Shown one piece after another: positions 1,867-17,181 of a DNA stretch of 32,000 nucleotides (position 1 is the first letter of the stretch; each line of letters opens with the position of its first letter). The notes under the pieces are model-generated. The model was not told the origin of the DNA and ran no database searches. It saw only the letters and a program-made list of their open reading frames with translations. Position numbers and translations under genes: made by a program. Origin of the DNA: Halopiger xanaduensis SH-6 (lineage in GTDB: Archaea; Halobacteriota; Halobacteria; Halobacteriales; Natrialbaceae); the NCBI RefSeq assembly GCF_000217715.1, contig NC_015666.1, positions 290,270 to 322,269 on the forward strand, read 5' to 3'.

Positions 1867-4800
1867 ATGGACGGACAATCTACCCAACCCCGGAAGGCCC
1901 AGCTCGACAAGGAAGAACGCGAGCATCTCGAGGACGTCGTCACCGAGATGCGCGACCGCGTCGAGGCGAACGTTCGCTACCAGCTCGAGGACGAGTATGA
2001 CCTCGACGAGAAACCGGACGACGATGCGTCCCTAAGCGAGGAGCAGGAAGACCTCGTCGAGGCTATCGAACTCGAAGCCGTCGACGGGAATGATTGGGAC
2101 GACGGCTACGAGCAGTACATCACGGGCGTCGGCTACACGATCGTCAATCGGCTGGCCGCGCTCCGTTGTATGGAGGTTCGTGACTTCATCGACGACGAGG
2201 TCACGGCCTTCCGCGACGACGGCCTCACGCCAGCCGCCGACCGGCTGGTCACCGAGGAGTTCATGCTCGAGGAGGAAGCCGTCCTCGAAGCCTACAGGAA
2301 CGCGTGCGACGATCTCGCTGAGGAGATCGACATTCTCTTCGACCGCTCAACGGCCTACAGTCAGCTCGATCCCGACGACGACACCTACGAAGACCTCTGT
2401 GGGATGCTCGATGAGGTATCTGACGAGGTCTGGCGGGCCGACGACGTACTGGGCTGGGTCTACGAGTACTACAACGTCAATCTTCTTGACGATCTTCGAC
2501 GGAAGGGCGACCGTGAAGGACTAGAGCCTGAAGACGTGCCAGCAGCGAACCAGTTCTATACGCCGCACTGGGTCGTGCGGATGCTTACCGACAACTCGCT
2601 AGGGAAGCTCTATCTCGAAGACAACGGAACGCTGCAGGAGACGGTTGATAGACAGGACTCACTGACGCCCGACGAACGTAAGAATCGCCCACTATCCCCC
2701 GACGAGTCCCCAGATATTGCGGATTTCTGTACCTATCTCGTCCCATCTGAAGAGGAAGGTGAACCACCGGAGTTCGACGGCCCTGAAGACATCCGCGTCA
2801 TTGACCCGGCCTGTGGAAGCGGTCACTTCCTACTGTACGCGTTCGACGTGCTGGAGCGCATCTATCGGGCCGAAACAGATCTCGACCACGCCGAAATCCC
2901 ACGAGAGATTCTGCGGAACAACCTCTACGGCGTCGACCTTGATATGCGTGCCTGCCAACTCGCCGCGTTCAATCTCTATCTGAAGGGCCGGACGCGGGCC
3001 GAGGCCGAGGGCGCGAGCGGCTTCGATATGCCGGAGGTCGGCATCGTCTGTGCCGACGCGAAGGTGGCCGACATCGAGGGCGTTGAGGAGGTGTTCGACG
3101 AGGTGGCCGACGGGAAGTCAGACGTGGAGGATGCCCTCCGGCGTATCCTTGATGCGTTCGAGGAAGTTCACGGCCTCGGGAGTCTGCTGGACGTGCGTGG
3201 GACGCTCGGCGACCTGTTCGAGGACGACAGCGAGCAGGCCGGGGTTCAGATTACGCTCGGTGACGACCCGCGGGAGGATCACACGCTCGGGCAGATTCTA
3301 CACAGTCTGCGTGATGCAGTCGACCAACACCGGGAGGAGGATTCGTTCTTGGCGCAGGACTTGCGAAGCTTCGTCCGACTGCTAGACGTGCTGGCACAGG
3401 ACTATGATGTGGCGTTGATGAATCCGCCGTATGGGTCGAAGAATCGGATGCCAGACGTGGTGCAGGATTATGTTGAAGAGCACTATCGATACTCATCTGA
3501 GTTTTATATCAACTTCTTCGAGGTCTGTGATCGAGTGTCTAAGGAGGATGGGAGAATCGGGATGCTCGTTCCCCGGAGCTTTATGTACAAAAACCGGTAT
3601 CAAGACTTCCGCAGTGACTTTATTGGAGATGAGGGGAGTTTCGACTTCCTAGCTGAATATGGAATTGGCATCTTGGACAATGCCACCGTTCGGACAGTAG
3701 GTACTGTAGTCCAATCAGGAGCAAATCAGGGGTCTAAGGGGTCGTTCCTCCGACTTCACGATATACAAACTGAGCAGAAAGAGCAGGTATTCACTGAGGT
3801 TCTCTCTGATTCCAACGATAACGAGGTGATTCGTAGCTTCGATATTGAACTGCAAGAGTTCGATAAGATACCTCGCACCCCAATTTGTTACTCTATTCCT
3901 CAAGAAATCCGCGCGTTGCACGAATGTGAAACAAAACTGGACGCAGAGCACGCAGGGGTAGATGGAGAATCTATCTGTAACGCAGTTCCGGGACTTCAAA
4001 CAGCCGATGATGACCGTTTCGTCAGGCGATTCTGGGAGATTGACGATTATGAGGTTTTCAAACCGATTGCGAAGGGTGGAGCAGATGCATGGCTAGTCCC
4101 CCCGGTCACAGAGACTGTTGAGTGGAGTGGGAATGGAACCATTCTTAAACGTTCCAGCAAGTCGATCAGAACTCGGAACGAATCGCTATATGGCAACAAG
4201 GGACTGAGTTGGACTTACATAAAGGATACAGGTCGTCGATTCGGGTATTATCCGGGAGGCTTGTTCAGCCATACTGGTTTTATGCTCTTTCCCAAAACGG
4301 AGAAGTCTCTTTGGAAGATGATGGCCATACTGAATTCGACTCTCTACCACAATCTCTTTCTCTCACTGACGACAGAGCGGCACTGGAACGCAGGCGAGGT
4401 TGGTAGTGTTCCGTGGGTCGAATCGATTGATAAGCAAGACGGGTTGGAGTCTGCGGCTCGCGAGCAGTACGAAATTATGGTGGAACAGCGAGCAAATGAT
4501 CCATCGAGTCCCTACTATACAGGGCCGAGCCTACTTCCTACGGAAAGCGGCGATTCGTTCTACTCGCACCCACATTCGCGAAGTCTGTCGGAATCTGAGG
4601 CCTCAATCGATCCAAGCACCATATCGGTAAGTGACCCAATCAGACCTGCTGCACGAAAGGAGGAACAAGCCCGACTGAAGCGGCGTCAGCAGCTGGAGAA
4701 TCTATCCGAGCAGATAGATTCTCAGGTGTTCTCAGCGATCGAGCTTTCCAGCGAAGTTCAGGATAGAGCCCGACAGGAGATATTCCTCCGAACATCCGAA

Positions 4801-6192
4801 GACCCCGAAGATCGCGAAGTCCCCAACCCCGAATCCGTCCCTGAAGTCCCGGACAACCTTGACGAACAGGTTAAAGACCTTGTCCACCACTTCGCGATGA
4901 AAGCCGTCCGCGAGGAATCCGACGGCATCATTCCGCTCGAAGGTACGGACGAGCAGGCCGACATGCTCAACCACATCGTCGAGCAATTCGAGGACGCGTA
5001 CGGCGAGCACGCCGAAGACCGCCTCGTCGAGGTCGACGATATTCTCGGGGCCGAGTCCGCCGCCGACGAGGCGTACCCCAACCTCCGGTCGTTCATCGAG
5101 GACGAACTCTTCGCCTACCACGTCGACACGATGGAGAACACGCCCATCGTTTGGAAGCTTAGCACGGCGCGGCTCCTCGCCGACGCGAAGGGCGAGGGCT
5201 TCGCGTGCTTCGTCGACTACCACCAACTCGATGCCAGCCTATTCGACCGCCTGAGCAACCAGTATCTCGAACCGCGGAAAGCCGAACTCCGCGAGCGTCG
5301 GTCGGCAGCGAACCAACGTCGGAACAACGAGTCACTCTCCACAAGCGAACGCGCTGAGGCGACCGACGAGTTCGAGTTCTGCTCCAGTGCGCTCGAACAG
5401 ATCGCCGAACTCGAAGAGGTGATGCAGGAACTCGGCTCCACCAGTGAGCGCGAGTTCGACGACGACGATCGCGAACGCGTCAGCAAGCTAGCCCCCAAGG
5501 TCGCCGCGTTCCGCGAGGAGACCGCGGAGCGCATCGAGACGCTCAAACGACTCCGCGAAATGAACGGCGAGGAGTGGTTCCAAGACACCTTCTCCGATAA
5601 TTTCTGGAACGCCGTCGACGAGTGGCGTGACGAGTGGGTGGACGCTCTTGAGGAACTGGAACACGCTTGCGAGGAGTACGCCAAACCCAGCGACGAGCCC
5701 GTCGAAGCCCACCTTGCCGACCTCTTCGACTACTTCAACTGGCGGCTCAAAGGCTCGGATCATTACTCCAGCACGGGCATCCTCTTCATGACCTACTACT
5801 TCGAGCGCGAGGGGAGCGACCTCCTCGACGACGATGGTGAGCCGTTCGATAACCTCACCGAGGATGAGAAGCTGCTCGCCTCGCTCGCGACGGGTATCGA
5901 CGACGCATCCGTCCTTGACGAAGAGTACCTCCAACAGATTGCGGATGATGAAGGCGTCGACAACGTGGACGAGTTACCACCGCTAGCGGAGTTCAAGGCG
6001 CTCGCTGAGGAAATCGATGACCGCTGTCAGACGGTGGATAAGCAGATTCCCTCGGACTGGTCGGATCGTGCGCTATCGGAGATCACGACAGCGGGTTACC
6101 AGCCTGTCCACAAGCACGGCGTCGCGATCAATATTACACCGCTCGCGGAGAAGGACATCGTTCCGGAGGTAGTCGAAGACAAGGTACTGTAG
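1867..6192 (+). CDS. pglX: BREX PglX-type N6-adenine DNA methyltransferase, 1441 aa
   Basis: PglX-typical N-terminal blocks LGWVYEYYN and ANQFYTPHWVVRMLTDNSLG. AdoMet motif I VIDPACGSGHFLLYAF (nt 2797 onward). Motif IV LMNPPYG (NPPY at nt 3421-3432). C-terminal blocks TPIVWKLS...GFACFVDYHQLD and HGVAINITPL resemble PglX C-termini. ATG at 1867. Confidence 0.85.
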   Translation: MDGQSTQPRKAQLDKEEREHLEDVVTEMRDRVEANVRYQLEDEYDLDEKPDDDASLSEEQEDLVEAIELEAVDGNDWDDGYEQYITGVGYTIVNRLAALRCMEVRDFIDDEVTAFRDDGLTPAADRLVTEEFMLEEEAVLEAYRNACDDLAEEIDILFDRSTAYSQLDPDDDTYEDLCGMLDEVSDEVWRADDVLGWVYEYYNVNLLDDLRRKGDREGLEPEDVPAANQFYTPHWVVRMLTDNSLGKLYLEDNGTLQETVDRQDSLTPDERKNRPLSPDESPDIADFCTYLVPSEEEGEPPEFDGPEDIRVIDPACGSGHFLLYAFDVLERIYRAETDLDHAEIPREILRNNLYGVDLDMRACQLAAFNLYLKGRTRAEAEGASGFDMPEVGIVCADAKVADIEGVEEVFDEVADGKSDVEDALRRILDAFEEVHGLGSLLDVRGTLGDLFEDDSEQAGVQITLGDDPREDHTLGQILHSLRDAVDQHREEDSFLAQDLRSFVRLLDVLAQDYDVALMNPPYGSKNRMPDVVQDYVEEHYRYSSEFYINFFEVCDRVSKEDGRIGMLVPRSFMYKNRYQDFRSDFIGDEGSFDFLAEYGIGILDNATVRTVGTVVQSGANQGSKGSFLRLHDIQTEQKEQVFTEVLSDSNDNEVIRSFDIELQEFDKIPRTPICYSIPQEIRALHECETKLDAEHAGVDGESICNAVPGLQTADDDRFVRRFWEIDDYEVFKPIAKGGADAWLVPPVTETVEWSGNGTILKRSSKSIRTRNESLYGNKGLSWTYIKDTGRRFGYYPGGLFSHTGFMLFPKTEKSLWKMMAILNSTLYHNLFLSLTTERHWNAGEVGSVPWVESIDKQDGLESAAREQYEIMVEQRANDPSSPYYTGPSLLPTESGDSFYSHPHSRSLSESEASIDPSTISVSDPIRPAARKEEQARLKRRQQLENLSEQIDSQVFSAIELSSEVQDRARQEIFLRTSEDPEDREVPNPESVPEVPDNLDEQVKDLVHHFAMKAVREESDGIIPLEGTDEQADMLNHIVEQFEDAYGEHAEDRLVEVDDILGAESAADEAYPNLRSFIEDELFAYHVDTMENTPIVWKLSTARLLADAKGEGFACFVDYHQLDASLFDRLSNQYLEPRKAELRERRSAANQRRNNESLSTSERAEATDEFEFCSSALEQIAELEEVMQELGSTSEREFDDDDRERVSKLAPKVAAFREETAERIETLKRLREMNGEEWFQDTFSDNFWNAVDEWRDEWVDALEELEHACEEYAKPSDEPVEAHLADLFDYFNWRLKGSDHYSSTGILFMTYYFEREGSDLLDDDGEPFDNLTEDEKLLASLATGIDDASVLDEEYLQQIADDEGVDNVDELPPLAEFKALAEEIDDRCQTVDKQIPSDWSDRALSEITTAGYQPVHKHGVAINITPLAEKDIVPEVVEDKVL

Positions 6193-6361: not shown

Positions 6362-7723
6362 CTACCAATATATCGCCGTGAAGCTGACCTCAAGATACCA
6401 CTCGTTACGCTCCCCTCCACGTGCGAGTGTTTCAAACTCTCTGGATAGAATCGCGTCTATCAAATCATCCCGCTTTGATTCATCGAGTTCATAGTCGTGG
6501 CTCCTGCTGTCTAGCTCACTTTCGAGTTTTTCAACCGCCTCCTCAATACCCTCGATCCTCGACGTTGTTTCGCCAGTATCCGAGAGGACAGATTGCACCA
6601 CATCCTCGGCTTCTTCCGCACTAACGTTAAGATTTGATTCGCCCTCAAGCTCATCAAGATAACTTTCCAACCGAGGTCGAAGCTCTATTTCATTCCCTTC
6701 ATCTACTGGAGCGCCGGGGTTTGCATCTTCGAATGTCTCCGGGATGTCATAAATCGACTCTCCAAGCCCAGATACTATCGAATCGACTACTGACAATAGC
6801 TTAATTGGCATCCACTCGTCTGAGACCTCATCACTGTCCAGCCGACAATAGACTGTGTACTCATCGTCGTCAAATAAGAACCTTGTTTCTTCTTGCCAGA
6901 ACTTGTCTGAATTTACAAATCCGACTATATTCAGAGGTTCACACTTGTTTTGGTACTCGGAAACGTAGTCCTCGTGTACGATGATGGGCTCATCGTCTTC
7001 AACTATGACACCATAGTTTTCTACTTCTCCCACAATTGGCACCAGCCCAGCTAACAGATGTTCGATAAGCTCGGAGAATGCCTCCAGCTCGCGCATTGAG
7101 AACTCTTCAGTATCGAGATGCCGAGAGAACTCTGATTCTTCGGGGAACAAGTCGAACATCTCTGCCATAGAACCGACTGCCGTATAGAAGTCATAAACCT
7201 CGTGAGAGCCAAGATTCACATTCACCTCCGCTAAGCTTCCTCTATCGAAATCGACCTCAGTTAGAGGTTCAGGCTCATCGTTTGATGTCAGGCGATCCCA
7301 GATCCGACGAGGAACGGACGCATGAGGCTCATATTCGTCAGATATGACCATATCATCAGCGCGCATTTCATACAGCTCCTTGAAATTCGACTGAATCACA
7401 TATCGGCGGACTGCCTCTGAACTGCTCTCCTTGGTAGCACCTATATTTGCGTTCAGAGATGATGTTTTATCGCCCAGTCCTCCCTTGATGCTTCCAGAAA
7501 TCTGACGGCGCTTTACTGTGCTTTTCTGCTCAGTGATGCCACCAGTAGTTGACGCGATCAGGCTAATTACGGAGGTTTCGTCAAGATAGACGAATTCACG
7601 GAGAGGTGGGACAGTTACATAACCTAATTTTGTCTTTGCCCAGTCTATCCCTCGTAGAGGAAGCCGAATAGTGGTGGCCGCTGCTCCTTTCACCCATGCG
7701 AGAATGCCCATATTATTCACCAC
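6362..7723 (-). CDS. Hypothetical 453-aa protein, translationally coupled partner of the AAA+ ATPase
   Basis: Long ORF with acidic composition. The start region overlaps or abuts the ATPase stop: GTG at 7723 or 7720, or ATG at 7711, against TAA at 7713-7715. The N-terminal block REFVYLDETSVISLIASTTGGITEQKS is followed by a G/S/K-rich linker. The C-terminus is an acidic coiled-coil-like tail. No catalytic motif recognised. Possible DUF6414/DolA-like N-terminus (unverified). Confidence 0.7.
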   Translation of the reverse strand: MVNNMGILAWVKGAAATTIRLPLRGIDWAKTKLGYVTVPPLREFVYLDETSVISLIASTTGGITEQKSTVKRRQISGSIKGGLGDKTSSLNANIGATKESSSEAVRRYVIQSNFKELYEMRADDMVISDEYEPHASVPRRIWDRLTSNDEPEPLTEVDFDRGSLAEVNVNLGSHEVYDFYTAVGSMAEMFDLFPEESEFSRHLDTEEFSMRELEAFSELIEHLLAGLVPIVGEVENYGVIVEDDEPIIVHEDYVSEYQNKCEPLNIVGFVNSDKFWQEETRFLFDDDEYTVYCRLDSDEVSDEWMPIKLLSVVDSIVSGLGESIYDIPETFEDANPGAPVDEGNEIELRPRLESYLDELEGESNLNVSAEEAEDVVQSVLSDTGETTSRIEGIEEAVEKLESELDSRSHDYELDESKRDDLIDAILSREFETLARGGERNEWYLEVSFTAIYW

Positions 7724-8930
7724 CGTTAGTATTCATTTGCATCATTAACCGCTCATGTGCCTTCAAGAGGTCAGAATGTCGAATCTCATCGCGGCCAGCT
7801 GCTACGCAGAGGACTCCTGCCTCGTTCAGTAACGCGCGTAGTTTTGCTCCCGTCCAGCCCTCTGTCCGAGACATCACTTGGTCAATATTTTCTTCAGTGA
7901 TTGTGTCTGAGAGATTGTATCCCTCCCGTAGAGTGTTGAAAATCTCTCTACGGTGTTCGTCACTAGGTCTCGGAAAATGTACTTGCCAGTCAAACCGACC
8001 CGGACGAAGCAACGCATCATCTATCTCATTGATTTGGTTGGTTGCAGCGATGACAAAGACGTTCTCCTGTGCTCCATCAAATCCATCAAGAACGGCTAGT
8101 AGTTGGGCAACAATCCGTTGGCTGAAATCTCGTGTGCCCTCTCCACCTCGATCGACGGCAATACTATCGATCTCATCGAAGAAGATTATCGAAGGACTCT
8201 CTTCTCGCGCATCGTCGAATATCTCGCGTATTAACCGTTCAGTGTCGCCAACACCTTTACTGACGATTTCAGGGCCCCGGATACGATAGAATTGTGCTGA
8301 AATCGACTCAGAAAGTATCCGAGCAAAGTGAGTCTTCCCTGTTCCCGGAGGCCCATAAAAAAGAGCACCCATCCGCGGTTCCGTTCCAACTGTGGAGAGG
8401 GCATCAGATTCTGTCAGAAATAGCTCGACACGTTCACGAAACTGTTCTTGCGGAGTAGTCATACCCCCAAAGTCCTTGAAGGTCAGTTCTTTCTCCTCAT
8501 CTCCATCTTGCCCGCTCGATCTGCTCTCCTTGAAGGAATTAATCAGGGACTCATTGTCTGGCCCGAAGAGAGACAGAGAAGGATCGATCCCGGGATGTAC
8601 ATCAACGATCATATTCCTACTGATCTCAACGGCGGCGCCCGGTTCCACGTTGATGTTCCTCGGATTCGGTATTTTCTGCGTGACTCCATTAATTTCCACG
8701 ATCGCAGCACCATCAAGTTGTTTCTTCACCGTCCCTAACTCACTTCTTTCTATAGAATCTGGCTTTGCCATCCCCTCAAAGGTCAAATCATCACCATTTA
8801 GTTTAATCATGTCACCGGCGCTAAGATCGGCCTTAGTGACAATGTCGAAAATACCCCCGGTGGAAAGCTCTACGGTATATTGACCACTGTCTAACTCCTC
8901 ACGTACCGTGGCGTAGACCAGACTAGACAT
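7713..8930 (-). CDS. Classical-clade AAA+ ATPase (CDC48/FtsH-like single AAA module) with a ~190-aa beta-rich N-domain, 405 aa
   Basis: Walker A GPPGTGKT, Walker B IIFFDEID, sensor-1 VIAATN, second region of homology ALLRPGRFD, and a C-terminal helical lid. The N-terminal 190 aa are beta-strand-like (VYATVREELDSGQYTVELS...AIVEINGVTQKI). Confidence 0.9.
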   Translation of the reverse strand: MSSLVYATVREELDSGQYTVELSTGGIFDIVTKADLSAGDMIKLNGDDLTFEGMAKPDSIERSELGTVKKQLDGAAIVEINGVTQKIPNPRNINVEPGAAVEISRNMIVDVHPGIDPSLSLFGPDNESLINSFKESRSSGQDGDEEKELTFKDFGGMTTPQEQFRERVELFLTESDALSTVGTEPRMGALFYGPPGTGKTHFARILSESISAQFYRIRGPEIVSKGVGDTERLIREIFDDAREESPSIIFFDEIDSIAVDRGGEGTRDFSQRIVAQLLAVLDGFDGAQENVFVIAATNQINEIDDALLRPGRFDWQVHFPRPSDEHRREIFNTLREGYNLSDTITEENIDQVMSRTEGWTGAKLRALLNEAGVLCVAAGRDEIRHSDLLKAHERLMMQMNTNGGE

Positions 8931-9209: not shown

Positions 9210-11402
9210 ATGCAAGCAAGCAAATCCCTTCCAGACGCCGCGAAAAGCACCATCCGAAGCAAGTTCGACCGCGCCGAGTCGTCAGATCCGATCATCCTCT
9301 GGTGGGACGACGGGAACTATCTCGAGGACATCATCGAGCAGGCCTGTAACGAACTCGGCGTTGAGCTGAAAGTCGCCGACGAAACCCCGCTGGAACTCCG
9401 TGCCAATCCGGTCGACGGTGAACAGGTCTGGTACGTCCCACACGTCAAAGATCCCGAAGACGCCGAGGGGGAGTACGACTGGTTCCGCGACGTTGAGCAC
9501 ACGGGCGGCGAGGTGGAGATGAGCATCGAAGACCTCACCGTCCACGCGTTCGAGCGCGGACAACTCGATGCGTGGGAGCTGAAAACCGCGACGCAGGCGG
9601 ACGACCCCGCGAAGCGTCGCGAGATCGCGCGGATTCTCCACGACCAGCTCACCGGTGGGCAGCTCCCGACGCTCGAACAGCTCCGCACGCAGATCGTCAC
9701 CGGCGGCTACACCGACCCGGTCGCGTTCGTGCTGGAGAACGGCTGGGGCGACATCGACGACAGCCCCGACACTATCGAGCAGATGCAGGACTTGCTCACC
9801 AGCGAGGGCGTCGACGCGGTCGCCAGCGAGGACGAACCCGTGGGGATCGTCGCGGCGACGCGTCGGTGGGCAGTCGCCGAGTGGCTGATCCACGCCGGCG
9901 CCGACGCCGAACGCTTCCCGAGGGAGTTCCGCGCCGAGACGGCCGGCGACCACGACCTCCCCGAGCTCAAGTCGCTTCTAAACAACACCACCTCGGCCAG
10001 CCTCCTCGCCGACCGCTACCTCGGCGAGGCGATCTGGCCCGAGGTCGTCGCGGACGTCGACGACCCGTGGGAACTCGCGGACTGTATCGTCGACGCCGCG
10101 CTCGAGCGTCGCCTCTGGGAGGAGTGGCACGCGTCCTTCGACGCCGGCGACTACGAGACGTGTCTCGAGCGCGCCGAGGAGCGGTACGACGCCCTCCTTG
10201 GCAGCGAAGACTTCCGTGGCACCTACCGAGGAGCCTACGGCCCGGACAGCCCGTGGACGCAGACTTGGGAACAGGCCGCGGAGATCGCTCGGCTCGCGCA
10301 CCAGCTCGAGACGTGGGACGAGAGCGCGCCTGACGACGTCGTCTCGCTGTACGCCGACCCCGACGACGGCACGTGGCAGATCGACAACGCGGTGCTCAAC
10401 CTCGTTGTCGCCGGCGAGCCCGAGTCCGATCTCCCAGACGATCATCCCGCGACCGCCGCGCTCGACGACCTCCGCACCCAACTCCAGTCGGAATACGTCG
10501 AGTACCTCGAAGACCTCGGCGACCTCGTCACGGAGACCGTCGAAGCTGGCGCTCCGTTCGTCGAGGAGGATCACTCCTACCAGTTCTTCACGAAGGAGTC
10601 CGACGGTCTCGAAAGCGGCCAGACGGTCGCGCTGTTCGTCATCGACGCCCTTCGACTCGATCTCGCTCGCCGGCTCGCGGACGAGTTGCGCGACTACGTG
10701 GCGACACTCCCGGCCGACGCCCCCGAGTTTGCCATCGACGAAGACGTCTGGCTCGGAACGCTTCCTTCGGAGACTGAGTTCGGGAAGGCTGCGCTCACGC
10801 CGGGGGAGATCCAGATGTTCGACGTCTCGCTGGTCGACGGCGAGTTACAGCCGCTTCGAAACAACCGTCGGGTGACGACCAACCGCCGCGAGTCGCTGTT
10901 GGGCGGCGACGGCTGGACGGTCACTCGCGAGGAGGACGACGGCTGGCAGTCGACGCGTGTCGCCTACTTCAAGAACGACATCGACGACATCGGCGAGAAG
11001 GAACTCAGCGACCTCGAGGCGATGCTGGCCCGACGCGTCGACTCGCTCGCGGAGTTCATCGGCACGAAACTCGAACAGGGCGAGTGGGATCAGGCCTACG
11101 TGCTGACCGACCACGGGTTCGTCCTGCTCCCGGACAACGCGTCGCCGGAGAAAATTTCGCGCCCGGCGGAAGCATCTGACTCCGGGCGCCGATGGATCGC
11201 TGGGGAAAATGTGGACGAGGATTCGCCCGGCGTGTTGCTCGACTCCAGCTCACGACTGGGCTATCTCGATGCCAACGTCAGCGTCCTTGCCAGCCCACTC
11301 AAGCGGTTCAGAAAGCAGGGGCTCGGTGACGCTCGGTTCTACCACGGCGGACTGCTCCCACAGGAGTTCGTGCTTGACTTCATCAGCATCACGCAGGGCT
11401 AA
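9210..11402 (+). CDS. pglZ: PglZ-domain protein (alkaline-phosphatase superfamily, BREX component), 730 aa
   Basis: N-terminal block IILWWDDGNYLEDI. PglZ core VALFVIDALRLDLARRLADEL, and later AYVLTDHGFVLL (DHG metal-site-like motif). Same strand as pglX and the downstream helicase. Confidence 0.8.
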   Translation: MQASKSLPDAAKSTIRSKFDRAESSDPIILWWDDGNYLEDIIEQACNELGVELKVADETPLELRANPVDGEQVWYVPHVKDPEDAEGEYDWFRDVEHTGGEVEMSIEDLTVHAFERGQLDAWELKTATQADDPAKRREIARILHDQLTGGQLPTLEQLRTQIVTGGYTDPVAFVLENGWGDIDDSPDTIEQMQDLLTSEGVDAVASEDEPVGIVAATRRWAVAEWLIHAGADAERFPREFRAETAGDHDLPELKSLLNNTTSASLLADRYLGEAIWPEVVADVDDPWELADCIVDAALERRLWEEWHASFDAGDYETCLERAEERYDALLGSEDFRGTYRGAYGPDSPWTQTWEQAAEIARLAHQLETWDESAPDDVVSLYADPDDGTWQIDNAVLNLVVAGEPESDLPDDHPATAALDDLRTQLQSEYVEYLEDLGDLVTETVEAGAPFVEEDHSYQFFTKESDGLESGQTVALFVIDALRLDLARRLADELRDYVATLPADAPEFAIDEDVWLGTLPSETEFGKAALTPGEIQMFDVSLVDGELQPLRNNRRVTTNRRESLLGGDGWTVTREEDDGWQSTRVAYFKNDIDDIGEKELSDLEAMLARRVDSLAEFIGTKLEQGEWDQAYVLTDHGFVLLPDNASPEKISRPAEASDSGRRWIAGENVDEDSPGVLLDSSSRLGYLDANVSVLASPLKRFRKQGLGDARFYHGGLLPQEFVLDFISITQG

Positions 11403-11421
11403 CCTCTCGAACTTCGCATCT

Positions 11422-12699
11422 ATGTCATCACAGGAAATAGAAGAAGCGACCACCGCAATTCGGAGTCACATCGTCGACTTTCTGACGACGCTCGATGATC
11501 AGATGGACGAGCCACGGCTCAGTGAGATCGTCGAGGCAGACGGCACACTTCAGAGCAAGAATCTTGGCCAAACACCGGAGCGGTGTGTCGAAGATGCTCT
11601 CATCTGGCCGATTCTGGAGACGCTCGGCTACGAGTACACACCACGACCGTACTATCCCGTCGGTGACAGCGATGAACAGCCGGATTTCCGAATCGACAAT
11701 CTCTCTGAAACGGTTATCGGGGAGAACAAATCGGTCAACAACTTCGAAACCGCGCAGGGTGACATTGAGGGCTACCTCGACTCACGCCGATACGAGTACG
11801 GGATCTCGAGTGACGGATTCCGTTGGGGAATGTACGCCGTTGAAACGGATGAACGCGGTCAAGCAGACCTCGTCACCGTCGTCGAAGACCAGAACATCGC
11901 ACCAGCGGTACGACGGATTGCCCGCAATCAAGGATTAGTCAGCTACACCGAAGAGTTGCAGGAAAACAGTACCGTCAAAGGAGTGTTGGGAGACTTCTAC
12001 CAGACATTCAATCACTACGGTATCCGGCGAGCTATCGGTGGACTAACCGAGTTTTACGACCTCTACTTGGAGGTGACTACCGGCGGTGGTGAATACCAGC
12101 ATCTGGACTCGACTCTCGTGGACGCAATCGAGGAGCCGGCAGACGCCTCAAAGTCGGAGAAACTGGCCTTCGCGGCACTACTCGTTGATCGACTCGCCTT
12201 TGTGAAACTGCTGGCAGATCGCGGTATCCTCGACCGCGTCGCGCTCCACGCCCAGTGGAGTGAGCATAATCAGGGGCTCAATCGGTTCCGTGGAAGCTTC
12301 TACTCTCAATACCTCCAGCCGTTGTTCTACGATGCGCTTTCGACTCCAAAACAGCAGCGCGACGACGAACTTCCAGAGATGTTCAGCGACGTACCGTACC
12401 TCGGCGGAGGATTGTTCGAGTCGATACTGCCGGCCGAACGTGCCTTCGATGTCCCAGATTCGGTAATGAAGCCAGTTCTCACGCAATTCATCGAGAACGA
12501 AGAACGGACGTTGGTCAATGAAGCCGCCGCGGGTTCCATTCTGGAGACGTACACGGAGGAGTTTGAGAGTCGGGAGCTGGCTGGACAGATACCACAGTAC
12601 TACGCCGACATTGTAGATGCCTACGGTGCAGAGATCGAGTACGTTGAGTCGGAGATCGAACGTACCCTACGGTCGTTCGTCGCAACGGAGGCTCGATAA
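11422..12699 (+). CDS. PD-(D/E)xK nuclease-like (HSDR_N-type) domain plus the helical GGLF domain of type IIG/ISP restriction enzymes, without a methyltransferase domain, 425 aa
   Basis: ATG at 11422, 19 nt after the pglZ stop. I discarded the longer 11209 start, which overlaps pglZ with an S/R/C-rich extension. Motifs: E57 (CVEDALIWPILETLGY), D88 (QPDFRI, nt 11683-11685), E101-x-K103 (VIGENK, nt 11722-11730), then QGDIEGY...YGISSDGFRWGMY. Helical-spacer signatures RLAFVKLLADRGIL and VPYLGGGLFES. No FxGxG or NPPY motif. Confidence 0.6.
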   Translation: MSSQEIEEATTAIRSHIVDFLTTLDDQMDEPRLSEIVEADGTLQSKNLGQTPERCVEDALIWPILETLGYEYTPRPYYPVGDSDEQPDFRIDNLSETVIGENKSVNNFETAQGDIEGYLDSRRYEYGISSDGFRWGMYAVETDERGQADLVTVVEDQNIAPAVRRIARNQGLVSYTEELQENSTVKGVLGDFYQTFNHYGIRRAIGGLTEFYDLYLEVTTGGGEYQHLDSTLVDAIEEPADASKSEKLAFAALLVDRLAFVKLLADRGILDRVALHAQWSEHNQGLNRFRGSFYSQYLQPLFYDALSTPKQQRDDELPEMFSDVPYLGGGLFESILPAERAFDVPDSVMKPVLTQFIENEERTLVNEAAAGSILETYTEEFESRELAGQIPQYYADIVDAYGAEIEYVESEIERTLRSFVATEAR

Positions 12700-12754
12700 T
12701 GCGCGGACTGGCAATCTTGAAGACAGCGTGCGGTCTTGACACACACATCACTCG

Positions 12755-15673
12755 ATGACGAACTCTACCCAGTTCTCTCCGGGGCAGCGGGTAATTCTCA
12801 ACGGAGCGCCGGCTGAAGTCATCAAAACCCAAACGGTCGGAGAGATCGAGTACCTAAGAGCATACATCGACGGCGAGGGCGCCAAGACGGTCTGTCTCGA
12901 CGATGTCGAGATTCAACCGCATCGATCCGGAATCGAGGAACTGTCCAACCAGCAAATCGATGACTTTCACCCGGATCATGACGCTGTGTCCGCGCAGTGG
13001 TTCGACCTCCACACGCAGGCGACGAAACTCAAGCTCGCCCACGAGCAGGGGCAGCTCCTGAGCATTTCGAACTCGCTCGTTCGACTGGAGCCCTACCAGC
13101 TCGACGCCGTGAACTGGGTGATGCAGAAACTCCGGCAGCGAGCGCTCATCGGCGACGACGTCGGGCTCGGGAAAACGATAGAGGCGGGGCTCATCCTCAA
13201 GGAACTCGCTGCCCGGAATCGCGCCGACCGCGTCCTGTTCGTCGTTCCCGCTCACCTCCAGAAGAAGTGGATCCGGGATATGGATCGCTTCTTCGACGTC
13301 GACCTCACCGTTGCAGACCGGGCATGGGTCGAAGGTGAGCGACGACGGCTCGGCGAGGAGGCCAACATCTGGAATCAAGACCAGCAACAGCTCGTCACCA
13401 GCATGGCGTTCCTGCGACAGGACGAGTTCCGGCCTGCACTCCGGGACGCGTTCTGGGACGTCGTCGTGGTCGACGAGGCACACAAGGCCGCAAAGCGTGG
13501 AGACTCGCCGAGCAAGACGGCAAACATGGTCGATACCGTCACGGGGAACTCCGACTCGCTGCTGCTTCTCAGCGCGACGCCGCACGACGGGAAAGGCGAG
13601 GCGTTCCGCTCACTCGTCGAGTACATCGACCCGTTCCTTGTCGCCGAGAACCGGGAACTCTCACAGGAGACAGTCGACCGCGTAATGATCCGGCGCGGAA
13701 AAACTGACATCTACGACGAGGATGGTGAACGCGTCTTCCCAGACCGGGAGGTCAACTCGGTATCCGTCTCGATGACGCACGACGAGCGGCAGTTCTACCG
13801 CGCGGTCACCGATTACGTCAAAAACGTCTACAACCGCTCGGAGAAGCTGAACGAACCTGCGGTCGGGTTCGCGATGGCGCTCATGCAGAAACGGCTGGTG
13901 AGCAGCGTCGGCGCGATTCACGCGACGCTCCGCCGACGACTGGATGACCTCCTCGACGAGGAGGCGGAAACGGACGGGCTCTCTGAGGAAGCACGAGCCT
14001 ATCTCGACGGCGAGGATCTGGACGAGGACGACAAGCAACACGCGGAAGACGAGATTGCTGGCCTGACCGTCACCAGCACCGACGAACAGCTCCAAGAGGA
14101 GATCGATACGCTCCGCGATCTCGTCTCGCTGGCCGAGGATTTGCCGGTCGACTCTAAGGCCCAGAAGGTCAGACGGTTCATCTCCCAACTCCTCGAGGAA
14201 CAACCGGACGAGAAACTCCTGTTGTTCACGGAGTACCGCGATACGCTCGACTACCTACTCGAGTACGTGCAGGACGAGCCGTGGGCGGACGAGATTCTCG
14301 TGATTCACGGTGACGTGGACAAGGAAGAGCGGGCGCGGATCGAAGACGAGTTCAACCACGGCCAGCCGCGGCTCCTGTTCGCGACTGACGCAGCGAGCGA
14401 GGGGATCGACCTCCAGCACAGCTGCCACATCATGGCCAACTACGAGCTTCCGTGGAACCCGAACCGCCTCGAACAGCGGATCGGCCGCATCCATCGCTAC
14501 GGACAGGAGGAGGAGGTCAAGGTCTGGAACTTCCTCTTCGACGACACCCGCGAGAGCGAGATCTTCGAGATGCTCCAAACCAAGGTCGAGGAGATCCGCT
14601 CCCAGCTCGGAAACACGGCGGACGTGCTCGGCATCCTCGACGACATCGACGTGGACTCGCTCATCATGGAGTCCATCGAGAACGACGAACCGCCGAGTGC
14701 GACCAAAGAGGAACTCGAGGAGATGATCGAGGAGCGTCAGCGGACGCTCGAGGAGTGGTACGAGCGGAGCCTCGTCGATACGAGCACGTTCGACGCGGAG
14801 AGCCGTCGGCAGATTCAGGAGGTCGTCGACGAGTCAGAGGACGTCTACGGAAGCGAGGGAGACATTCGCGAGTTCTTCGAGCGAGCAGTCGAAGCCTTCG
14901 GAGGCGAATTCGAGAAGCGCGGCACCAACCTCTATCAAGCCGAACTACCGGACGGGATCAATTCACCCGGCCAAGACGCGACGTTCGGCCCGTTCACGTT
15001 CGATCGCGACTTCGCGATGGATCACGAGGACATCACCTACCTCGCTCCCGATACGGACGTCCTGCAACGACTCATGGCACGCGTGTTGGAGGACGAGCGT
15101 GGAGAGGTCGGACTCAAACTGCTTCCGTTCGTCGACACTCCGGGGATCACCTACAACTATCGCGTGGCGTTCGAGGACGGCACCGGCGACGTGATTCGCG
15201 AGGAGACCATCCCCGTCTTCGTGGATGCTGCGCAAGAGGATGCTCAGCAGGCGCTTGGTGAACGTGTCGTCGAGGGCGACTCGGTAGCAGCAAAGCCCGA
15301 CGTCGACGACCTTCGGACGGTTCTCGACGCTCAATCCGACTTACGGACGGCTGCCGATCGATACGTGAGCGTGCGGGTTAACGAGATCAAGAACCATCTT
15401 CAGGAGAAGCGTCACGAGGAGACCGCTCGAGAGCTGGAGAATCTCGAGGAATACGCACAGGCAGAACGAGAACGGATCGAGTCCTTCATCGAGGAGTACG
15501 AGCGCAAAGCCGACGCCGGCTCGGATATGGACATCGCGATCCGTGGTCAACAGGAGCGGCTCGAACAGCTTGAGGACAGAATCGAAAAGCGTCGCGAAGA
15601 ACTCCGGCGTCGAGAGCAGATTATCTCCCTTGCGCCCGAGGTCGAGAACTACTGTCTCACGCTACCTCTTTAG
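12755..15673 (+). CDS. SNF2-family DEAH-box helicase/translocase (BrxHII-like), 972 aa
   Basis: Motif I DDVGLGKTIEAG, motif II VVVDEAHKA, motif III LLLSATPHDG. Helicase-C block LLFATDAASEGIDLQ...NYELPWNPNRLEQRIGRIHRYGQ. N-terminal FSPGQRVILNG...EVIKT is Tudor/SH3-like as in RapA-type SNF2 proteins. The C-terminal ~330 aa are unassigned and end in a coiled coil. Confidence 0.85.
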   Translation: MTNSTQFSPGQRVILNGAPAEVIKTQTVGEIEYLRAYIDGEGAKTVCLDDVEIQPHRSGIEELSNQQIDDFHPDHDAVSAQWFDLHTQATKLKLAHEQGQLLSISNSLVRLEPYQLDAVNWVMQKLRQRALIGDDVGLGKTIEAGLILKELAARNRADRVLFVVPAHLQKKWIRDMDRFFDVDLTVADRAWVEGERRRLGEEANIWNQDQQQLVTSMAFLRQDEFRPALRDAFWDVVVVDEAHKAAKRGDSPSKTANMVDTVTGNSDSLLLLSATPHDGKGEAFRSLVEYIDPFLVAENRELSQETVDRVMIRRGKTDIYDEDGERVFPDREVNSVSVSMTHDERQFYRAVTDYVKNVYNRSEKLNEPAVGFAMALMQKRLVSSVGAIHATLRRRLDDLLDEEAETDGLSEEARAYLDGEDLDEDDKQHAEDEIAGLTVTSTDEQLQEEIDTLRDLVSLAEDLPVDSKAQKVRRFISQLLEEQPDEKLLLFTEYRDTLDYLLEYVQDEPWADEILVIHGDVDKEERARIEDEFNHGQPRLLFATDAASEGIDLQHSCHIMANYELPWNPNRLEQRIGRIHRYGQEEEVKVWNFLFDDTRESEIFEMLQTKVEEIRSQLGNTADVLGILDDIDVDSLIMESIENDEPPSATKEELEEMIEERQRTLEEWYERSLVDTSTFDAESRRQIQEVVDESEDVYGSEGDIREFFERAVEAFGGEFEKRGTNLYQAELPDGINSPGQDATFGPFTFDRDFAMDHEDITYLAPDTDVLQRLMARVLEDERGEVGLKLLPFVDTPGITYNYRVAFEDGTGDVIREETIPVFVDAAQEDAQQALGERVVEGDSVAAKPDVDDLRTVLDAQSDLRTAADRYVSVRVNEIKNHLQEKRHEETARELENLEEYAQAERERIESFIEEYERKADAGSDMDIAIRGQQERLEQLEDRIEKRREELRRREQIISLAPEVENYCLTLPL

Positions 15674-16006: not shown

Positions 16007-17047
16007 TTGCCCCTTCGAGGTTCTCCAGAGAGAGTGGGAAAGATAGAGACAACGGACATCACGGTACGAGTGTTGGGGCCGCCCAAATTTGACCGACACG
16101 GCAACCACGAGGTTCCCGTTGAAGACGCCGACGGACGAGTTTCCGATCTCAGGGTGTGGAGTAAGCACCACGGACAAGTCGAGTGGCGGGTCGGCTCGAT
16201 GTACGATTTAGTAGAGGTCAAGCGGAATCCCGTCGAGGCCAACAAGGCCCAGTACGAGACCGCTGCGAATACACAGATTTCGAGAGTAGGACATCCACAG
16301 GATCCGGAAGTGAGCCTTCTCCACGTGAGCGATACCCATCTCGGTCGTCCTCTGACCGACAAGGAACACATGGGGAACGCGAATCAGCTGGAGCGATTTC
16401 TCGATGCGGTCAATCTCGCGGTCAAATCTCGAGTGGATGCGATCATCCACACTGGCGACATCTTCGACGACGATGTCGATGAAGCGACCGTGCAGACCGT
16501 CGAAGAACATGTCGAGTTGTTGGCCGACGCCGGTATTCCGATCTACTACGTTCGAGGCAATCACGGGTGCGACCGAGGGGACGCGTTTCTTCAATCACAG
16601 ACCGAGGCAGGACGAATGATACATCTCTCAAGTGAGCCTCAGTTGCTCGGTAAGGGAACTCTCGCCCTCTACGGGATGGATGCCGATGCATCTGTGAACG
16701 GACTCTCAGAAGTAGCTCCTGTCGGTGACGCACCACAGGACGCGTACCGGCTGTTGGCGTGGCACGAGGCCGTCGAGCCCATCGCCAGAGATGGAATCTC
16801 AATTGGGGAGCTGGTGGACGCCAGCGAAGTCGAACTGGATGCTCTCGCCCTCGGCGACCTGCACAAGCACAAGCGAGCCTACATCGGTGATGTCTACAAG
16901 GACAGCGGGAAACGGTTTCGTGCGTTCTACGCCGGCGCGACGACGGGCATCGCGCGGAACTCAGAAGGGTACGAACCAGCTGCGTGGCTGCTACAGATAA
17001 CTAACGGTACGCTTGAGCGACATCGACTACCCCTTCGACCTCGGTAG
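16007..17047 (+). CDS. Fusion of an OB-fold-like N-domain with an Mre11/SbcD-type calcineurin-like metallophosphoesterase, 346 aa
   Basis: Phosphoesterase motifs in order: LLHVSDTHLG (DxH), IHTGDIFD (GD), YYVRGNHG (GNH), LLAWHEAV (H), ALGDLHKH (GDxH). The first ~100 aa (ITVRVLGPP...VEDADGRVSDLRVWS...GSMYDLVEVK) follow an OB-fold strand pattern. Start uncertain: TTG at 16007 or GTG at 16034. Confidence 0.75.
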   Translation: MPLRGSPERVGKIETTDITVRVLGPPKFDRHGNHEVPVEDADGRVSDLRVWSKHHGQVEWRVGSMYDLVEVKRNPVEANKAQYETAANTQISRVGHPQDPEVSLLHVSDTHLGRPLTDKEHMGNANQLERFLDAVNLAVKSRVDAIIHTGDIFDDDVDEATVQTVEEHVELLADAGIPIYYVRGNHGCDRGDAFLQSQTEAGRMIHLSSEPQLLGKGTLALYGMDADASVNGLSEVAPVGDAPQDAYRLLAWHEAVEPIARDGISIGELVDASEVELDALALGDLHKHKRAYIGDVYKDSGKRFRAFYAGATTGIARNSEGYEPAAWLLQITNGTLERHRLPLRPR

Positions 17048-17181
17048 TGGCCTTCCTCCACGAGAGCCACACGAATCTATTCGAACTACGGACTGAGCAG
17101 AGGCGTCGAGCAAATATCTGCTGAAAGTGGGTACTTCTCCCGGGCCGGCATACAAGTAGGAGCAGTGGCGCCAGATCTAGT

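What the first reader, a model, noticed from the sequence alone, without database searches (positions are those of the whole stretch)
11422..12699. Stand-alone restriction-enzyme N-terminal module (PD-ExK nuclease plus GGLF helical spacer) between pglZ and the SNF2 helicase
Seen in sequence: the protein has an E...PD...ExK core (E57, D88, E101-x-K103), followed by Q...Y and SDGxxW as in HSDR_N-type nuclease domains. It then carries the RLAFVKLLADRGIL and YLGGGLFE signatures typical of the helical region preceding the methyltransferase domain in MmeI-like type IIG enzymes and PglX. The ORF ends without any AdoMet or NPPY motif.

Inference: the methyltransferase/TRD part may be supplied in trans by PglX and the motor by the adjacent SNF2 helicase. 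Nuclease, SF2 ATPase and methyltransferase-TRD together make up the domain set of single-polypeptide Type ISP enzymes, here split over separate genes and joined to PglZ. This would give a BREX-like system an explicit nuclease arm, which canonical BREX lacks.
Basis: partly seen in the sequence, partly recalled or inferred. Interest (0 to 1): 0.7.

Follow-up and report, generated by a model that had tools for sequence, protein, structure and literature searches.

The report
Restriction-enzyme nuclease half inside BREX
This gene encodes only the front half (probable DNA-cutting domain plus helical connector) of a one-piece restriction-modification enzyme, kept intact by selection and always placed just before the helicase gene of an archaeal BREX anti-virus locus, so it is probably an add-on nuclease for that locus, though this has not been tested.

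Summary
The ORF (11422-12699, +, 425 aa) is real. Its motifs are present and invariant in 29 haloarchaeal homologues.

A profile search of 1.84 billion proteins shows it is collinear with the first ~400 residues of many 1050-1300-aa type IIG enzymes, which then continue into MmeI_Mtase/Eco57I domains. The ORF stops about 20 residues after a degenerate copy of the first methyltransferase motif (GAYYTP has become DAYGAE).

It is not a pseudogene: dN/dS is 0.07-0.15 in all three segments.

It is a discrete ~1.35-kb cassette between pglZ and brxHII of a BREX type 5 locus. In about 25 loci of its clade brxHII follows immediately. Upstream is pglZ or a second pglX. The same slot is empty, or holds an unrelated ORF, in other BREX-5 loci.

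A ~48%-identical sister clade and 217-231-aa nuclease-only relatives sit beside other partners: a conserved 351-aa protein, Snf2 helicase plus type IIG-like methylase, and Hma.

The PD-(D/E)xK fold rests on motif placement on the predicted αβββαβ core. Profile and fold searches against solved nucleases were not significant.

The split Type ISP idea remains untested. Embedded accessory nucleases in BREX are already described, so this is a new variant of a known kind.

The parts
11422..12699 (+). The gene: 425-aa protein equal to the N-terminal half of a type IIG restriction-modification enzyme (stop codon included)
   Evidence: ORF list. 55 haloarchaeal homologues. Collinear with residues ~1-400 of 1050-1300-aa type IIG-like proteins. 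dN/dS 0.07-0.15.
11554..11901 (+). Predicted nuclease core, residues ~45-160: helix 52-68, strands 72-74, 89-91 and 98-102, helix 108-118, strands 126-130, 134-142 and 148-158
   Evidence: AF2 secondary structure, mean pLDDT 80. Motifs fall where a PD-(D/E)xK core expects them. Foldseek gives only weak hits to Hjc and LHK-Exo, E about 2.
11578..11580 (+). Codon of E53, the helix glutamate invariant in the family and in 58/58 full-length relatives
11683..11685 (+). Codon of D88 (of P87-D88), invariant in 58/58 full-length relatives
11722..11730 (+). Codons of E101-N102-K103. E101 is invariant. Position 103 is K or E and covaries with position 57.
11974..12516 (+). Helical spacer domain, residues ~185-365, including R257 and GGLF 329-332 (nt 12406-12417)
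   Evidence: Pfam DUF7814. MmeI 5hr4 residues 188-311. 30% identity to residues 163-272 of a haloarchaeal type IIG-like methylase, E = 6e-10.
12517..12696 (+). Vestigial start of the methyltransferase domain, residues 366-425. 'NEAAAGSILETY' aligns to 'DPAILGSVFEKT' and 'VDAYGAEIEYV' to 'IGAYYTPNDVT' of full-length relatives. Conserved helical tail.
   Evidence: Alignment. MmeI 292-311 alignment. Tail under purifying selection.
11399..12747 (.). Cassette boundaries: DNA homology to target-less BREX-5 loci stops 4 nt before the pglZ stop and resumes 7-19 nt before the brxHII start
   Evidence: blastn of the window against L024 (BOL4-2) and L025 (Halocatena). GC3 is 0.64 against 0.84 for pglZ and 0.78 for brxHII.
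9210..11402 (+). pglZ (BREX-5), upstream neighbour, 19-nt gap
   Evidence: Pfam PglZ. PADLOC PDLC02562, 1503.7 bits.
12755..15673 (+). brxHII Snf2-family helicase, downstream neighbour, 55-nt gap. Directly follows the target wherever the flank extends far enough, about 25 loci.
   Evidence: PADLOC PDLC02504, 2116.8 bits. Pfam SNF2-rel_dom and Helicase_C. Synteny.
1867..6192 (+). pglX (BREX-5 methyltransferase and specificity protein), the proposed trans partner
   Evidence: PADLOC PDLC02518, 2662 bits. Pfam Eco57I and MmeI_Mtase. No similarity to the target.

Best explanation
The gene is a domesticated N-terminal half of a haloarchaeal type IIG restriction-modification enzyme. It has a Mg2+-type PD-(D/E)xK nuclease core (E53, D88, E101-x-K103), the MmeI-like helical spacer, and a vestige of the first methyltransferase helices. 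It has no methyltransferase and no DNA-recognition domain. It was inserted as a ~1.35-kb cassette directly upstream of brxHII in one lineage of BREX type 5 loci.

Most likely it is an accessory, partner-dependent DNA nuclease. Because it cannot recognise DNA itself, it would use the retained spacer and vestigial interface region to dock on a locus-encoded partner. The Snf2 helicase BrxHII, its constant neighbour, is the first candidate. A PglX-type methylase is the second. It would then cut invader DNA that the BREX machinery has marked as unmodified.

Shown: ancestry, domain limits, residue conservation, purifying selection, cassette nature, synteny.

Inferred: nuclease activity, docking, choice of partner, dependence on methylation state.
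For: - Collinear homology to the first ~400 residues of type IIG-like proteins, E down to 2e-72. These proteins carry DUF7814/MmeI_hel followed by MmeI_Mtase/Eco57I/N6_Mtase.
- Full-length relatives in haloarchaeal plasmids are solitary single-gene enzymes.
- Direct MmeI match over the spacer.
- E53, D88, E101, G132 and W135 are invariant in 58 full-length relatives and in the family. Positions 57 and 103 show a charge swap.
- The AF2 model puts these residues on the helix-strand-strand-strand-helix-strand core.
- dN/dS is 0.07-0.15 for the nuclease, spacer and tail separately. The non-catalytic 250 residues are therefore also needed, which fits an adaptor role.
- brxHII follows at ~55-65 nt in every main-clade locus with enough flank, about 25 loci. 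The upstream gene varies between pglZ and pglX2.
- The sister clade also turns up beside the brxA end of BREX-5.
- Nuclease-only relatives of 217-231 aa sit beside Snf2 helicase plus methylase systems: Hma, and HKD-Snf2 plus type IIG-like methylase.
- The literature reports helicase-nuclease fusions in BREX-related systems and an inactive nuclease-like domain in BrxHII.
Against: - No biochemical data exist.
- The slot is variable. BrxHII that is 97.6% identical coexists with an unrelated ORF, and BrxHII that is 84.6% identical coexists with nothing, so the helicase does not need this protein.
- Sister-clade genes occur far from any BREX gene or with a different conserved neighbour.
- GC3 differs from both flanks, as expected of independent cargo.
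- In H. hispanica the brxHII deletion has no phenotype.
- No similarity between the spacer and BREX-5 PglX.
Confidence: 0.45

Rival explanations
1. The protein, BrxHII and PglX work as one split machine equivalent to a Type ISP (or Type III) restriction enzyme. PglX supplies methylase and sequence recognition, BrxHII supplies ATP-driven translocation, and this protein cuts.
For: - All three domain classes are encoded in one co-oriented locus with short gaps.
- The target-brxHII adjacency is constant, and in some loci a second pglX lies immediately upstream: pglX2-target-brxHII, with a 9-nt gap in Halorubellus.
- The same triad occurs as separate genes elsewhere: a short nuclease, a Snf2 helicase and a type IIG-like methylase in L019 and L020.
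Against: - The BREX-5 PglX has its own N-terminal region and shows no similarity to the target's spacer.
- BREX-5 defends and methylates without brxHII in H. hispanica.
- The slot is empty or differently filled in close relatives.
- Sister-clade genes lack both partners nearby.
Confidence: 0.17
2. Independent cargo. The cassette is a self-contained defence or addiction gene, or one half of a module whose partner lies elsewhere. It is merely parked in a recombination hotspot of a defence island and has no functional tie to BREX.
For: - Precise cassette boundaries and replacement by an unrelated ORF between 93%-identical flanks.
- Distinct GC3.
- Other cargo is embedded in the same locus: Kiwa, and the DUF6414 plus AAA ATPase pair.
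- The sister clade pairs with a conserved 351-aa protein or stands alone.
Against: - A nuclease with no recognition or regulatory domain and no adjacent immunity gene would be toxic or useless alone.
- The position immediately 5' of brxHII is kept across 63-96% protein divergence and two different upstream genes.
- The sister clade is again found beside BREX-5 genes.
Confidence: 0.28
3. Non-catalytic adaptor or regulator. The nuclease-like fold binds DNA or senses a signal, and the protein modulates PglX or BrxHII rather than cutting DNA.
For: - The fold could not be matched significantly to active nucleases.
- Inactive nuclease-like domains acting as sensors are described for BrxHII itself.
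- The long helical part is under selection as strong as the core.
Against: The full acidic/basic set (E53, D88, E101, K103) is invariant here and in full-length restriction enzymes, where it must be catalytic. Degenerate domains normally lose these residues.
Confidence: 0.07
4. Decaying remnant: a truncated pseudogene left from a full-length type IIG gene.
For: - The ORF ends just inside the old methyltransferase domain with a degenerate YYTP motif.
- Occasional frameshifted copies exist: Halomontanus and L043.
Against: - The length of 419-427 aa is kept across 47-96% identity in more than 50 proteins.
- dN/dS is about 0.1 in every segment, with dS up to 2.
- No methyltransferase remnant lies downstream; brxHII starts 55 nt later.
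Confidence: 0.03

Closest known systems
Type IIG / IIL single-chain restriction-modification enzymes (MmeI family; PDB 5hr4)
   Same: Same lineage. The N-terminal nuclease-like domain and the helical spacer (DUF7814/MmeI_hel) with the R...GGLF motif align collinearly with full-length members. MmeI itself aligns over residues 188-311.
   Different: - Lacks the whole methyltransferase (no AdoMet or NPPY motif) and the target-recognition domain.
- The first methyltransferase motif is degenerate.
- It is a separate 425-aa gene in a multi-gene locus, not a solitary enzyme.
Type ISP enzymes (LlaGI, LlaBIII) and Type III Res/Mod
   Same: The sum of the neighbouring genes (nuclease, SF2 Snf2-family ATPase, gamma-class methylase with recognition domain) equals their domain set. 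The domain order of these families is from my own knowledge.
   Different: - Here the parts are three genes.
- The ATPase is a RapA-like Snf2 protein (BrxHII), not the Type ISP or Res motor.
- No evidence that the three act together.
- The locus also needs BrxB, BrxC and PglZ.
Accessory ('auxiliary/backup') nucleases embedded in BREX loci: BrxU/GmrSD, NucS in H. hispanica, stand-alone PD-(D/E)xK nucleases (PMC12839542; bioRxiv 10.64898/2026.04.28.721311)
   Same: A nuclease gene inserted among core BREX genes, variable between related loci, not part of the six-gene definition.
   Different: - This one derives from a type IIG enzyme and keeps its spacer.
- Its position next to brxHII is fixed.
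- I did not find it mentioned in those papers, and a search of the held supplementary files of the NAR paper for the pHS3 protein's accession found nothing.
Helicase-nuclease pairs and fusions in defence: helicase-nuclease of DUF499/Hma 'BR' systems, Hachiman HamA-HamB
   Same: A nuclease encoded next to, or fused with, an SF2 helicase. A short relative of this nuclease lies beside an Hma system. Fusions are reported for BrxHII-like helicases.
   Different: - Different nuclease families and positions.
- No fusion of this nuclease family to a helicase was seen among the 150 best profile hits.

Membership tests
Type IIG (MmeI-like) restriction-modification enzyme | N-terminal nuclease domain homologous to that of family members | tested here: met
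   Profile positions ~10-200 align to the N-termini of 58 proteins of 900-1300 aa with a type IIG architecture. E53, D88 and E101 are invariant.
Type IIG (MmeI-like) restriction-modification enzyme | Helical spacer between nuclease and methyltransferase | tested here: met
   DUF7814 at 27.9 bits on the C-terminal half. MmeI 5hr4 E = 0.005-0.008. PADLOC REase_MTase_IIG models hit residues 237-376.
Type IIG (MmeI-like) restriction-modification enzyme | Gamma-class N6/N4 methyltransferase domain (AdoMet motif, NPPY/F) in the same polypeptide | tested here: not met
   No methyltransferase Pfam hit. The ORF ends ~20 residues after a degenerate GxYYTP motif.
Type IIG (MmeI-like) restriction-modification enzyme | C-terminal target-recognition domain | tested here: not met
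   The protein ends at residue 425. Full-length relatives continue for a further 600-900 residues.
PD-(D/E)xK nuclease superfamily | alpha-beta-beta-beta-alpha-beta core with an acidic residue at the start of strand 2 and (D/E)xK on strand 3 | tested here: inconclusive
   Pfam has no hit on residues 1-176. hhalign against the EcoKI HsdR N-terminus gives probability 0.14%. Against Mrr it gives probability 1.2% for a single sequence and 0.15% for a 22-sequence profile, although the alignment register pairs the motifs.
Type ISP restriction enzyme | Nuclease, SF2 ATPase, methyltransferase and recognition domain in one polypeptide | tested here: not met
   Three separate genes: 11422-12699, 12755-15673 and 1867-6192.
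Type ISP restriction enzyme | ATP-driven translocation coupled to cleavage at collision sites | not testable with these tools
   Needs biochemistry.
BREX type 5 locus (the context) | brxB, brxC, pglX, pglZ and brxHII together | tested here: met
   PADLOC full-length hits to PglX, PglZ and BrxHII. BrxC at 2638 bits and BrxB upstream on the source contig.
BREX type 5 locus (the context) | This gene is a listed or required component | tested here: not met
   Absent from PADLOC and NCBIfam models. Absent from Halanaeroarchaeum, Halocatena and BOL4-2 loci. Not mentioned for H. hispanica.

The most novel reading that the evidence does not exclude
A type IIG restriction enzyme was split in evolution. 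Its nuclease-plus-spacer half survives as a detachable subunit that plugs into the BREX type 5 machinery. It docks through the old nuclease-methylase interface onto PglX, or onto the inactive nuclease-like domain of the Snf2 helicase BrxHII, and converts BREX recognition of unmethylated sites into helicase-driven DNA cleavage. That would be a three-gene equivalent of Type ISP/III restriction built inside BREX.
Probability: 0.17. Interest if true: 0.8.

Novelty: new variant of a known kind. Interest (0 to 1): 0.5.

Why it matters
How BREX stops viral DNA is still debated. Type 5 is the least studied type, and its helicase BrxHII had no phenotype in the one system tested.

A conserved, selected nuclease gene fixed directly upstream of brxHII in one BREX-5 lineage gives a concrete testable handle. 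Haloarchaeal genetics (pop-in/pop-out deletions and the halovirus panels already used for H. hispanica) could show whether this lineage has a helicase-nuclease arm that the H. hispanica system lacks.

It also documents a way new defence parts arise. A single-chain restriction enzyme is cut inside its methyltransferase domain, and the nuclease-spacer half is kept and redeployed with different partners: BREX-5, a 351-aa protein, and Snf2-plus-methylase systems.

If the protein proves to be only parked cargo, it is an ordinary member of the growing list of nucleases embedded in BREX islands.

Tried and rejected
1. Pseudogene or remnant. Rejected by conserved length and dN/dS of about 0.1 in every segment.
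2. Remnant of a second pglX (brxX2). Rejected: no similarity to PglX, and it coexists with pglX2 in Halorubellus and in three metagenome loci.
3. HSDR_N or Mrr membership. Pfam and hhalign were not significant. The Mrr homologue set was too shallow (at least 70% identity) to make a strong profile.
4. Linking the N-terminal domain to solved structures by sequence profiles (A2, A3, and long relative P0100). This found only the spacer/methylase part of MmeI and BREX PglX/BrxX.
6. NCBIfam. No model for the protein or for the short relatives.
7. The 511-aa ORF that replaces the gene in BOL4-2. No similarity to the target and no Pfam hit, so I cannot say whether it is a functional analogue.
8. A look-up of ten cluster names timed out. 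The smaller look-up gave no names.
9. The Goldfarb 2015 paper was not held, so the original type 5 gene list could not be re-read.
10. Literature search for DUF7814: no papers.
Full report
**The gene and its setting**

The window is a haloarchaeal defence island with 57% G+C and acidic proteins. The ORF in question runs from ATG 11422 to the stop at 12697-12699 and encodes 425 aa. A longer reading from 11209 overlaps the end of pglZ and is not used by homologues, which all start at MSS/MDS.

| Coordinates | Strand | Gene | Evidence |
|---|---|---|---|
| 135-1714 | - | Kiwa (KwaB, KwaA) | |
| 1867-6192 | + | pglX | PADLOC PDLC02518, 2662 bits |
| 6362-8930 | - | DUF6414 plus AAA ATPase pair | |
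| 9210-11402 | + | pglZ | PDLC02562, 1503.7 bits |
| 11422-12699 | + | the gene | this report |
| 12755-15673 | + | Snf2 helicase brxHII | PDLC02504, 2116.8 bits |

On the source contig, brxB and a 1280-aa brxC (2638 bits) lie further upstream, past more inserted cargo. This is a BREX type 5 locus. The same arrangement is on Halobacterium salinarum R1 plasmid pHS3. There the gene is annotated only as a hypothetical protein (WP_012289694.1) and brxHII is broken by an IS element.

**Checking the observation**

In an alignment of 29 homologues (47-93% identical, all haloarchaeal) these residues are invariant: Q50, E53, R54, E57, D58, P87, D88, F89, G100, E101, N102, K103, Y118, D131, G132, W135, R257 and GGLF 329-332.

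Pfam finds only DUF7814 over 241-335, at the threshold. It finds nothing on residues 1-176. PDB sequence search finds only MmeI, over its helical spacer.

Three details need correcting:
- Q112 is not conserved.
- The resemblance to HSDR_N is not supported by any profile test.
- The C-terminus is not a clean domain end (see below).

**What it is**

The decisive result is a profile search of 1.84 billion representative proteins. After the family itself come dozens of 1050-1300-aa proteins. Their first ~400 residues align in one stretch to profile positions ~10-395, with E from 2e-72 to 1e-20.

Eight of these were scanned. All carry DUF7814/MmeI_hel at about 250-350, then MmeI_Mtase, Eco57I and N6_Mtase from about 450 onward. 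PADLOC calls them type IIG restriction enzyme-methyltransferases. Relatives on haloarchaeal plasmids are solitary genes, as expected of single-chain restriction-modification enzymes.

In 58 such proteins E53, D88, E101, G132, W135 and F332 are invariant. Position 103 is K or E, and it swaps charge with position 57: E/K in 17 proteins, K-or-R/E in 21. Fisher p = 3e-5, uncorrected for phylogeny. This suggests the two residues are neighbours in an active site.

Past the spacer, full-length relatives read '...DPAILGSVFEKTINHIE...IGAYYTPNDVT...', the start of the methyltransferase fold. The target reads '...NEAAAGSILETYTEEFE...VDAYGAEIEYVESEIERTL' and then stops. So the gene is a type IIG enzyme cut about 20 residues inside its methyltransferase domain, with the YYTP motif lost.

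**Not a pseudogene**

- Length is 419-427 aa across the family.
- Pairwise dN/dS is 0.07-0.10 for unsaturated pairs (dS 0.2-0.33) and 0.10-0.15 for more distant pairs.
- The values are similar for the nuclease part, the spacer and the vestigial tail.
- A few copies are frameshifted: Halomontanus and L043.

**Is it a nuclease?**

The AF2 model has mean pLDDT 80. It gives helix 52-68, strands 72-74, 89-91 and 98-102, helix 108-118 and strand 126-130. E53/E57 sit on the helix, D88 at the start of the second strand and E101-x-K103 on the third. This is the canonical PD-(D/E)xK layout. The layout itself, and the MmeI motif D70-X9-E-X-K82, are from my own knowledge.

No search linked the domain significantly to a solved nuclease:
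- Foldseek gave Hjc, LHK-Exo and AFV1 ORF157 at E of about 2.
- PDB profile searches were empty. A sub-threshold Bax1 match had E = 0.58.
- hhalign against EcoKI HsdR and against Mrr, as a single sequence and as a profile, was not significant. The Mrr alignment did pair the motifs in register.

I therefore rate the fold as strongly suggested but not proven. The best argument is that this domain is the only candidate for the cutting function in its single-chain relatives.

**Context across loci**

In the main clade (63-96% identical), brxHII follows at about 55-65 nt in every locus with enough flank:

| Source | Loci |
|---|---|
| Species genomes | 9 |
| Plasmid records | 6 |
| Metagenome contigs | 9 |
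| The window | 1 |

These sets may overlap in part.

The upstream gene is pglZ in most loci. It is a second pglX in Halorubellus and in three metagenome loci.

The gene is nevertheless a cassette. DNA homology to Halobacterium BOL4-2 (93%) and to Halocatena stops 2-4 nt before the pglZ stop and resumes 7-19 nt before the brxHII start. BOL4-2 has an unrelated 511-aa ORF there, and Halocatena has only 65 bp. Halanaeroarchaeum has pglZ and brxHII 6 nt apart.

Among 20 plasmid records with BrxHII at 63-98% identity, six carry the gene. Its GC3 (0.64) differs from pglZ (0.84) and brxHII (0.78).

**Relatives with other partners**

A ~48%-identical sister clade of the same length, with the same invariant residues, is found in several settings:
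- in ordinary-looking neighbourhoods;
- divergent from brxA of another BREX-5 locus;
- 3 kb from another BREX-5 locus;
- in five contexts, convergent with a conserved 351-aa protein of unknown family.

Homologues of that 351-aa protein also sit just upstream of 231-aa nuclease-only relatives in L019 and L020. Those relatives lie beside an HKD-Snf2 helicase and a type IIG-like methylase whose spacer resembles the target's. Another short relative lies beside an Hma system of Snf2 helicase, methylase and DUF499 ATPase.

The family profile finds no such domain in PglX, PglZ or BrxHII, and the spacer profile does not hit the BREX-5 PglX.

**Literature**

- The first functional study of a type V BREX (H. 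hispanica) lists brxA, brxB, brxC1, brxC2, nucS, brxX1, brxZ, brxX2 and brxHII. It reports that deleting brxA, nucS or brxHII affects neither defence nor methylation, and it notes that BrxZ has been shown to be a nuclease. No gene like this one is mentioned.
- A 2026 survey reports accessory and backup nuclease effectors closely linked to BREX and related systems in at least 4363 taxa. PD-(D/E)xK nucleases, stand-alone or fused, are the most prevalent class. It describes BrxHII as TUDOR-Snf2-inactive nuclease-alpha/beta, and mentions helicase-nuclease fusions in related systems and in a subset of type 5.
- I found no mention of a type IIG-derived half enzyme there. A search of its held supplementary files for the accession of the pHS3 protein found nothing.

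**Interpretation**

The ancestry, limits, conservation and cassette nature are shown. That the protein cuts DNA is a strong inference.

That it needs a partner follows from two points. It has no recognition domain. And selection keeps 250 non-catalytic residues that, in the parent enzymes, connect and pack against the methylase.

The constant adjacency to brxHII makes the helicase the first candidate partner. The pglX2-target arrangement and the type IIG ancestry keep PglX in play.

Against an obligate machine:
- near-identical BrxHII works without the gene;
- sister-clade genes live elsewhere;
- BREX-5 functions without brxHII in H. hispanica.

I therefore favour an accessory, partner-dependent nuclease (0.45) over parked independent cargo (0.28), the full split Type ISP machine (0.17), a non-catalytic adaptor (0.07) and a decaying remnant (0.03).

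**Verdict**

It is a new variant of a known kind, an embedded BREX accessory nuclease of unusual origin: a type IIG half enzyme. It is moderately interesting, mainly because it makes the role of BrxHII in type 5 BREX directly testable.

Noticed in passing
L028/L029 9281-10336 (-); L031 10318-11376 (-); L044, L045; L020 8809-9891 (+); L019 8793-9892: A conserved ~351-aa protein with no Pfam or PDB match contains 'GEGDFIVDDLLVDIKTT', a possible D...DxK motif. It is the convergent neighbour of the ~48% sister clade and the upstream neighbour of the 231-aa nuclease-only relatives. It may be the native partner of this nuclease family outside BREX.
   Followed up: partly
L024 (Halobacterium sp. BOL4-2 plasmid) 10356-11891, equivalent to window 11399-12747: An unrelated 511-aa ORF with no Pfam hit fills the pglZ|brxHII slot between flanks 93% identical to the window. 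This is a clean cassette swap, and the ORF may be a functional analogue.
   Followed up: partly
window 6362-8930 (-): A DUF6414 protein plus an AAA ATPase (IetA-like by PADLOC) is inserted on the opposite strand between pglX and pglZ. Its GC3 is very low (0.47-0.49) against 0.69-0.84 for the BREX genes. Related loci have a different AAA ATPase or nothing there.
   Followed up: partly
window 135-1714 (-): A Kiwa pair (KwaB, KwaA) is embedded between the brxC side and pglX of the BREX-5 locus. It is also present in Haloplanus sp. C73 and Halobacterium BOL4-2.
   Followed up: partly
window 22954-28447 (+): An AddAB-like pair (873-aa ORF with a Cas4-like motif, and a 959-aa UvrD-family helicase) lies downstream of the BREX locus. 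The counterpart pair at the same position on R1 pHS3 and BOL4-2 is annotated 'PD-(D/E)XK nuclease family protein' plus 'UvrD-helicase domain-containing protein'.
   Followed up: no
L022 11014-12057 (upstream of the window on the source contig); L024 727-1770: A 347-aa protein matches PADLOC candidate system PDC-S11. The gene at the same position beside Kiwa in BOL4-2 (L024 727-1770) is annotated 'endonuclease NucS domain-containing'. This recalls the nucS gene inserted in the H. hispanica type V BREX, whose deletion had no phenotype.
   Followed up: no
L003/L011 (Halorubellus), L037, L038, L043: Some BREX-5 loci carry two pglX genes (pglX-pglZ-pglX2), as in H. hispanica where the two methylate different motifs. 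In these loci the target sits between pglX2 and brxHII.
   Followed up: partly
window 11590-11592 and 11728-11730 (codons 57 and 103); alignment of 58 type IIG relatives: Charge-swap covariation between helix position 57 and strand position 103: E/K against K-or-R/E. It suggests a migrating catalytic lysine in this type IIG nuclease family.
   Followed up: partly
window 16007-17820 (+): A metallophosphoesterase (Metallophos) and an RdfA-family protein lie directly downstream of brxHII. Their function here is unknown.
   Followed up: no
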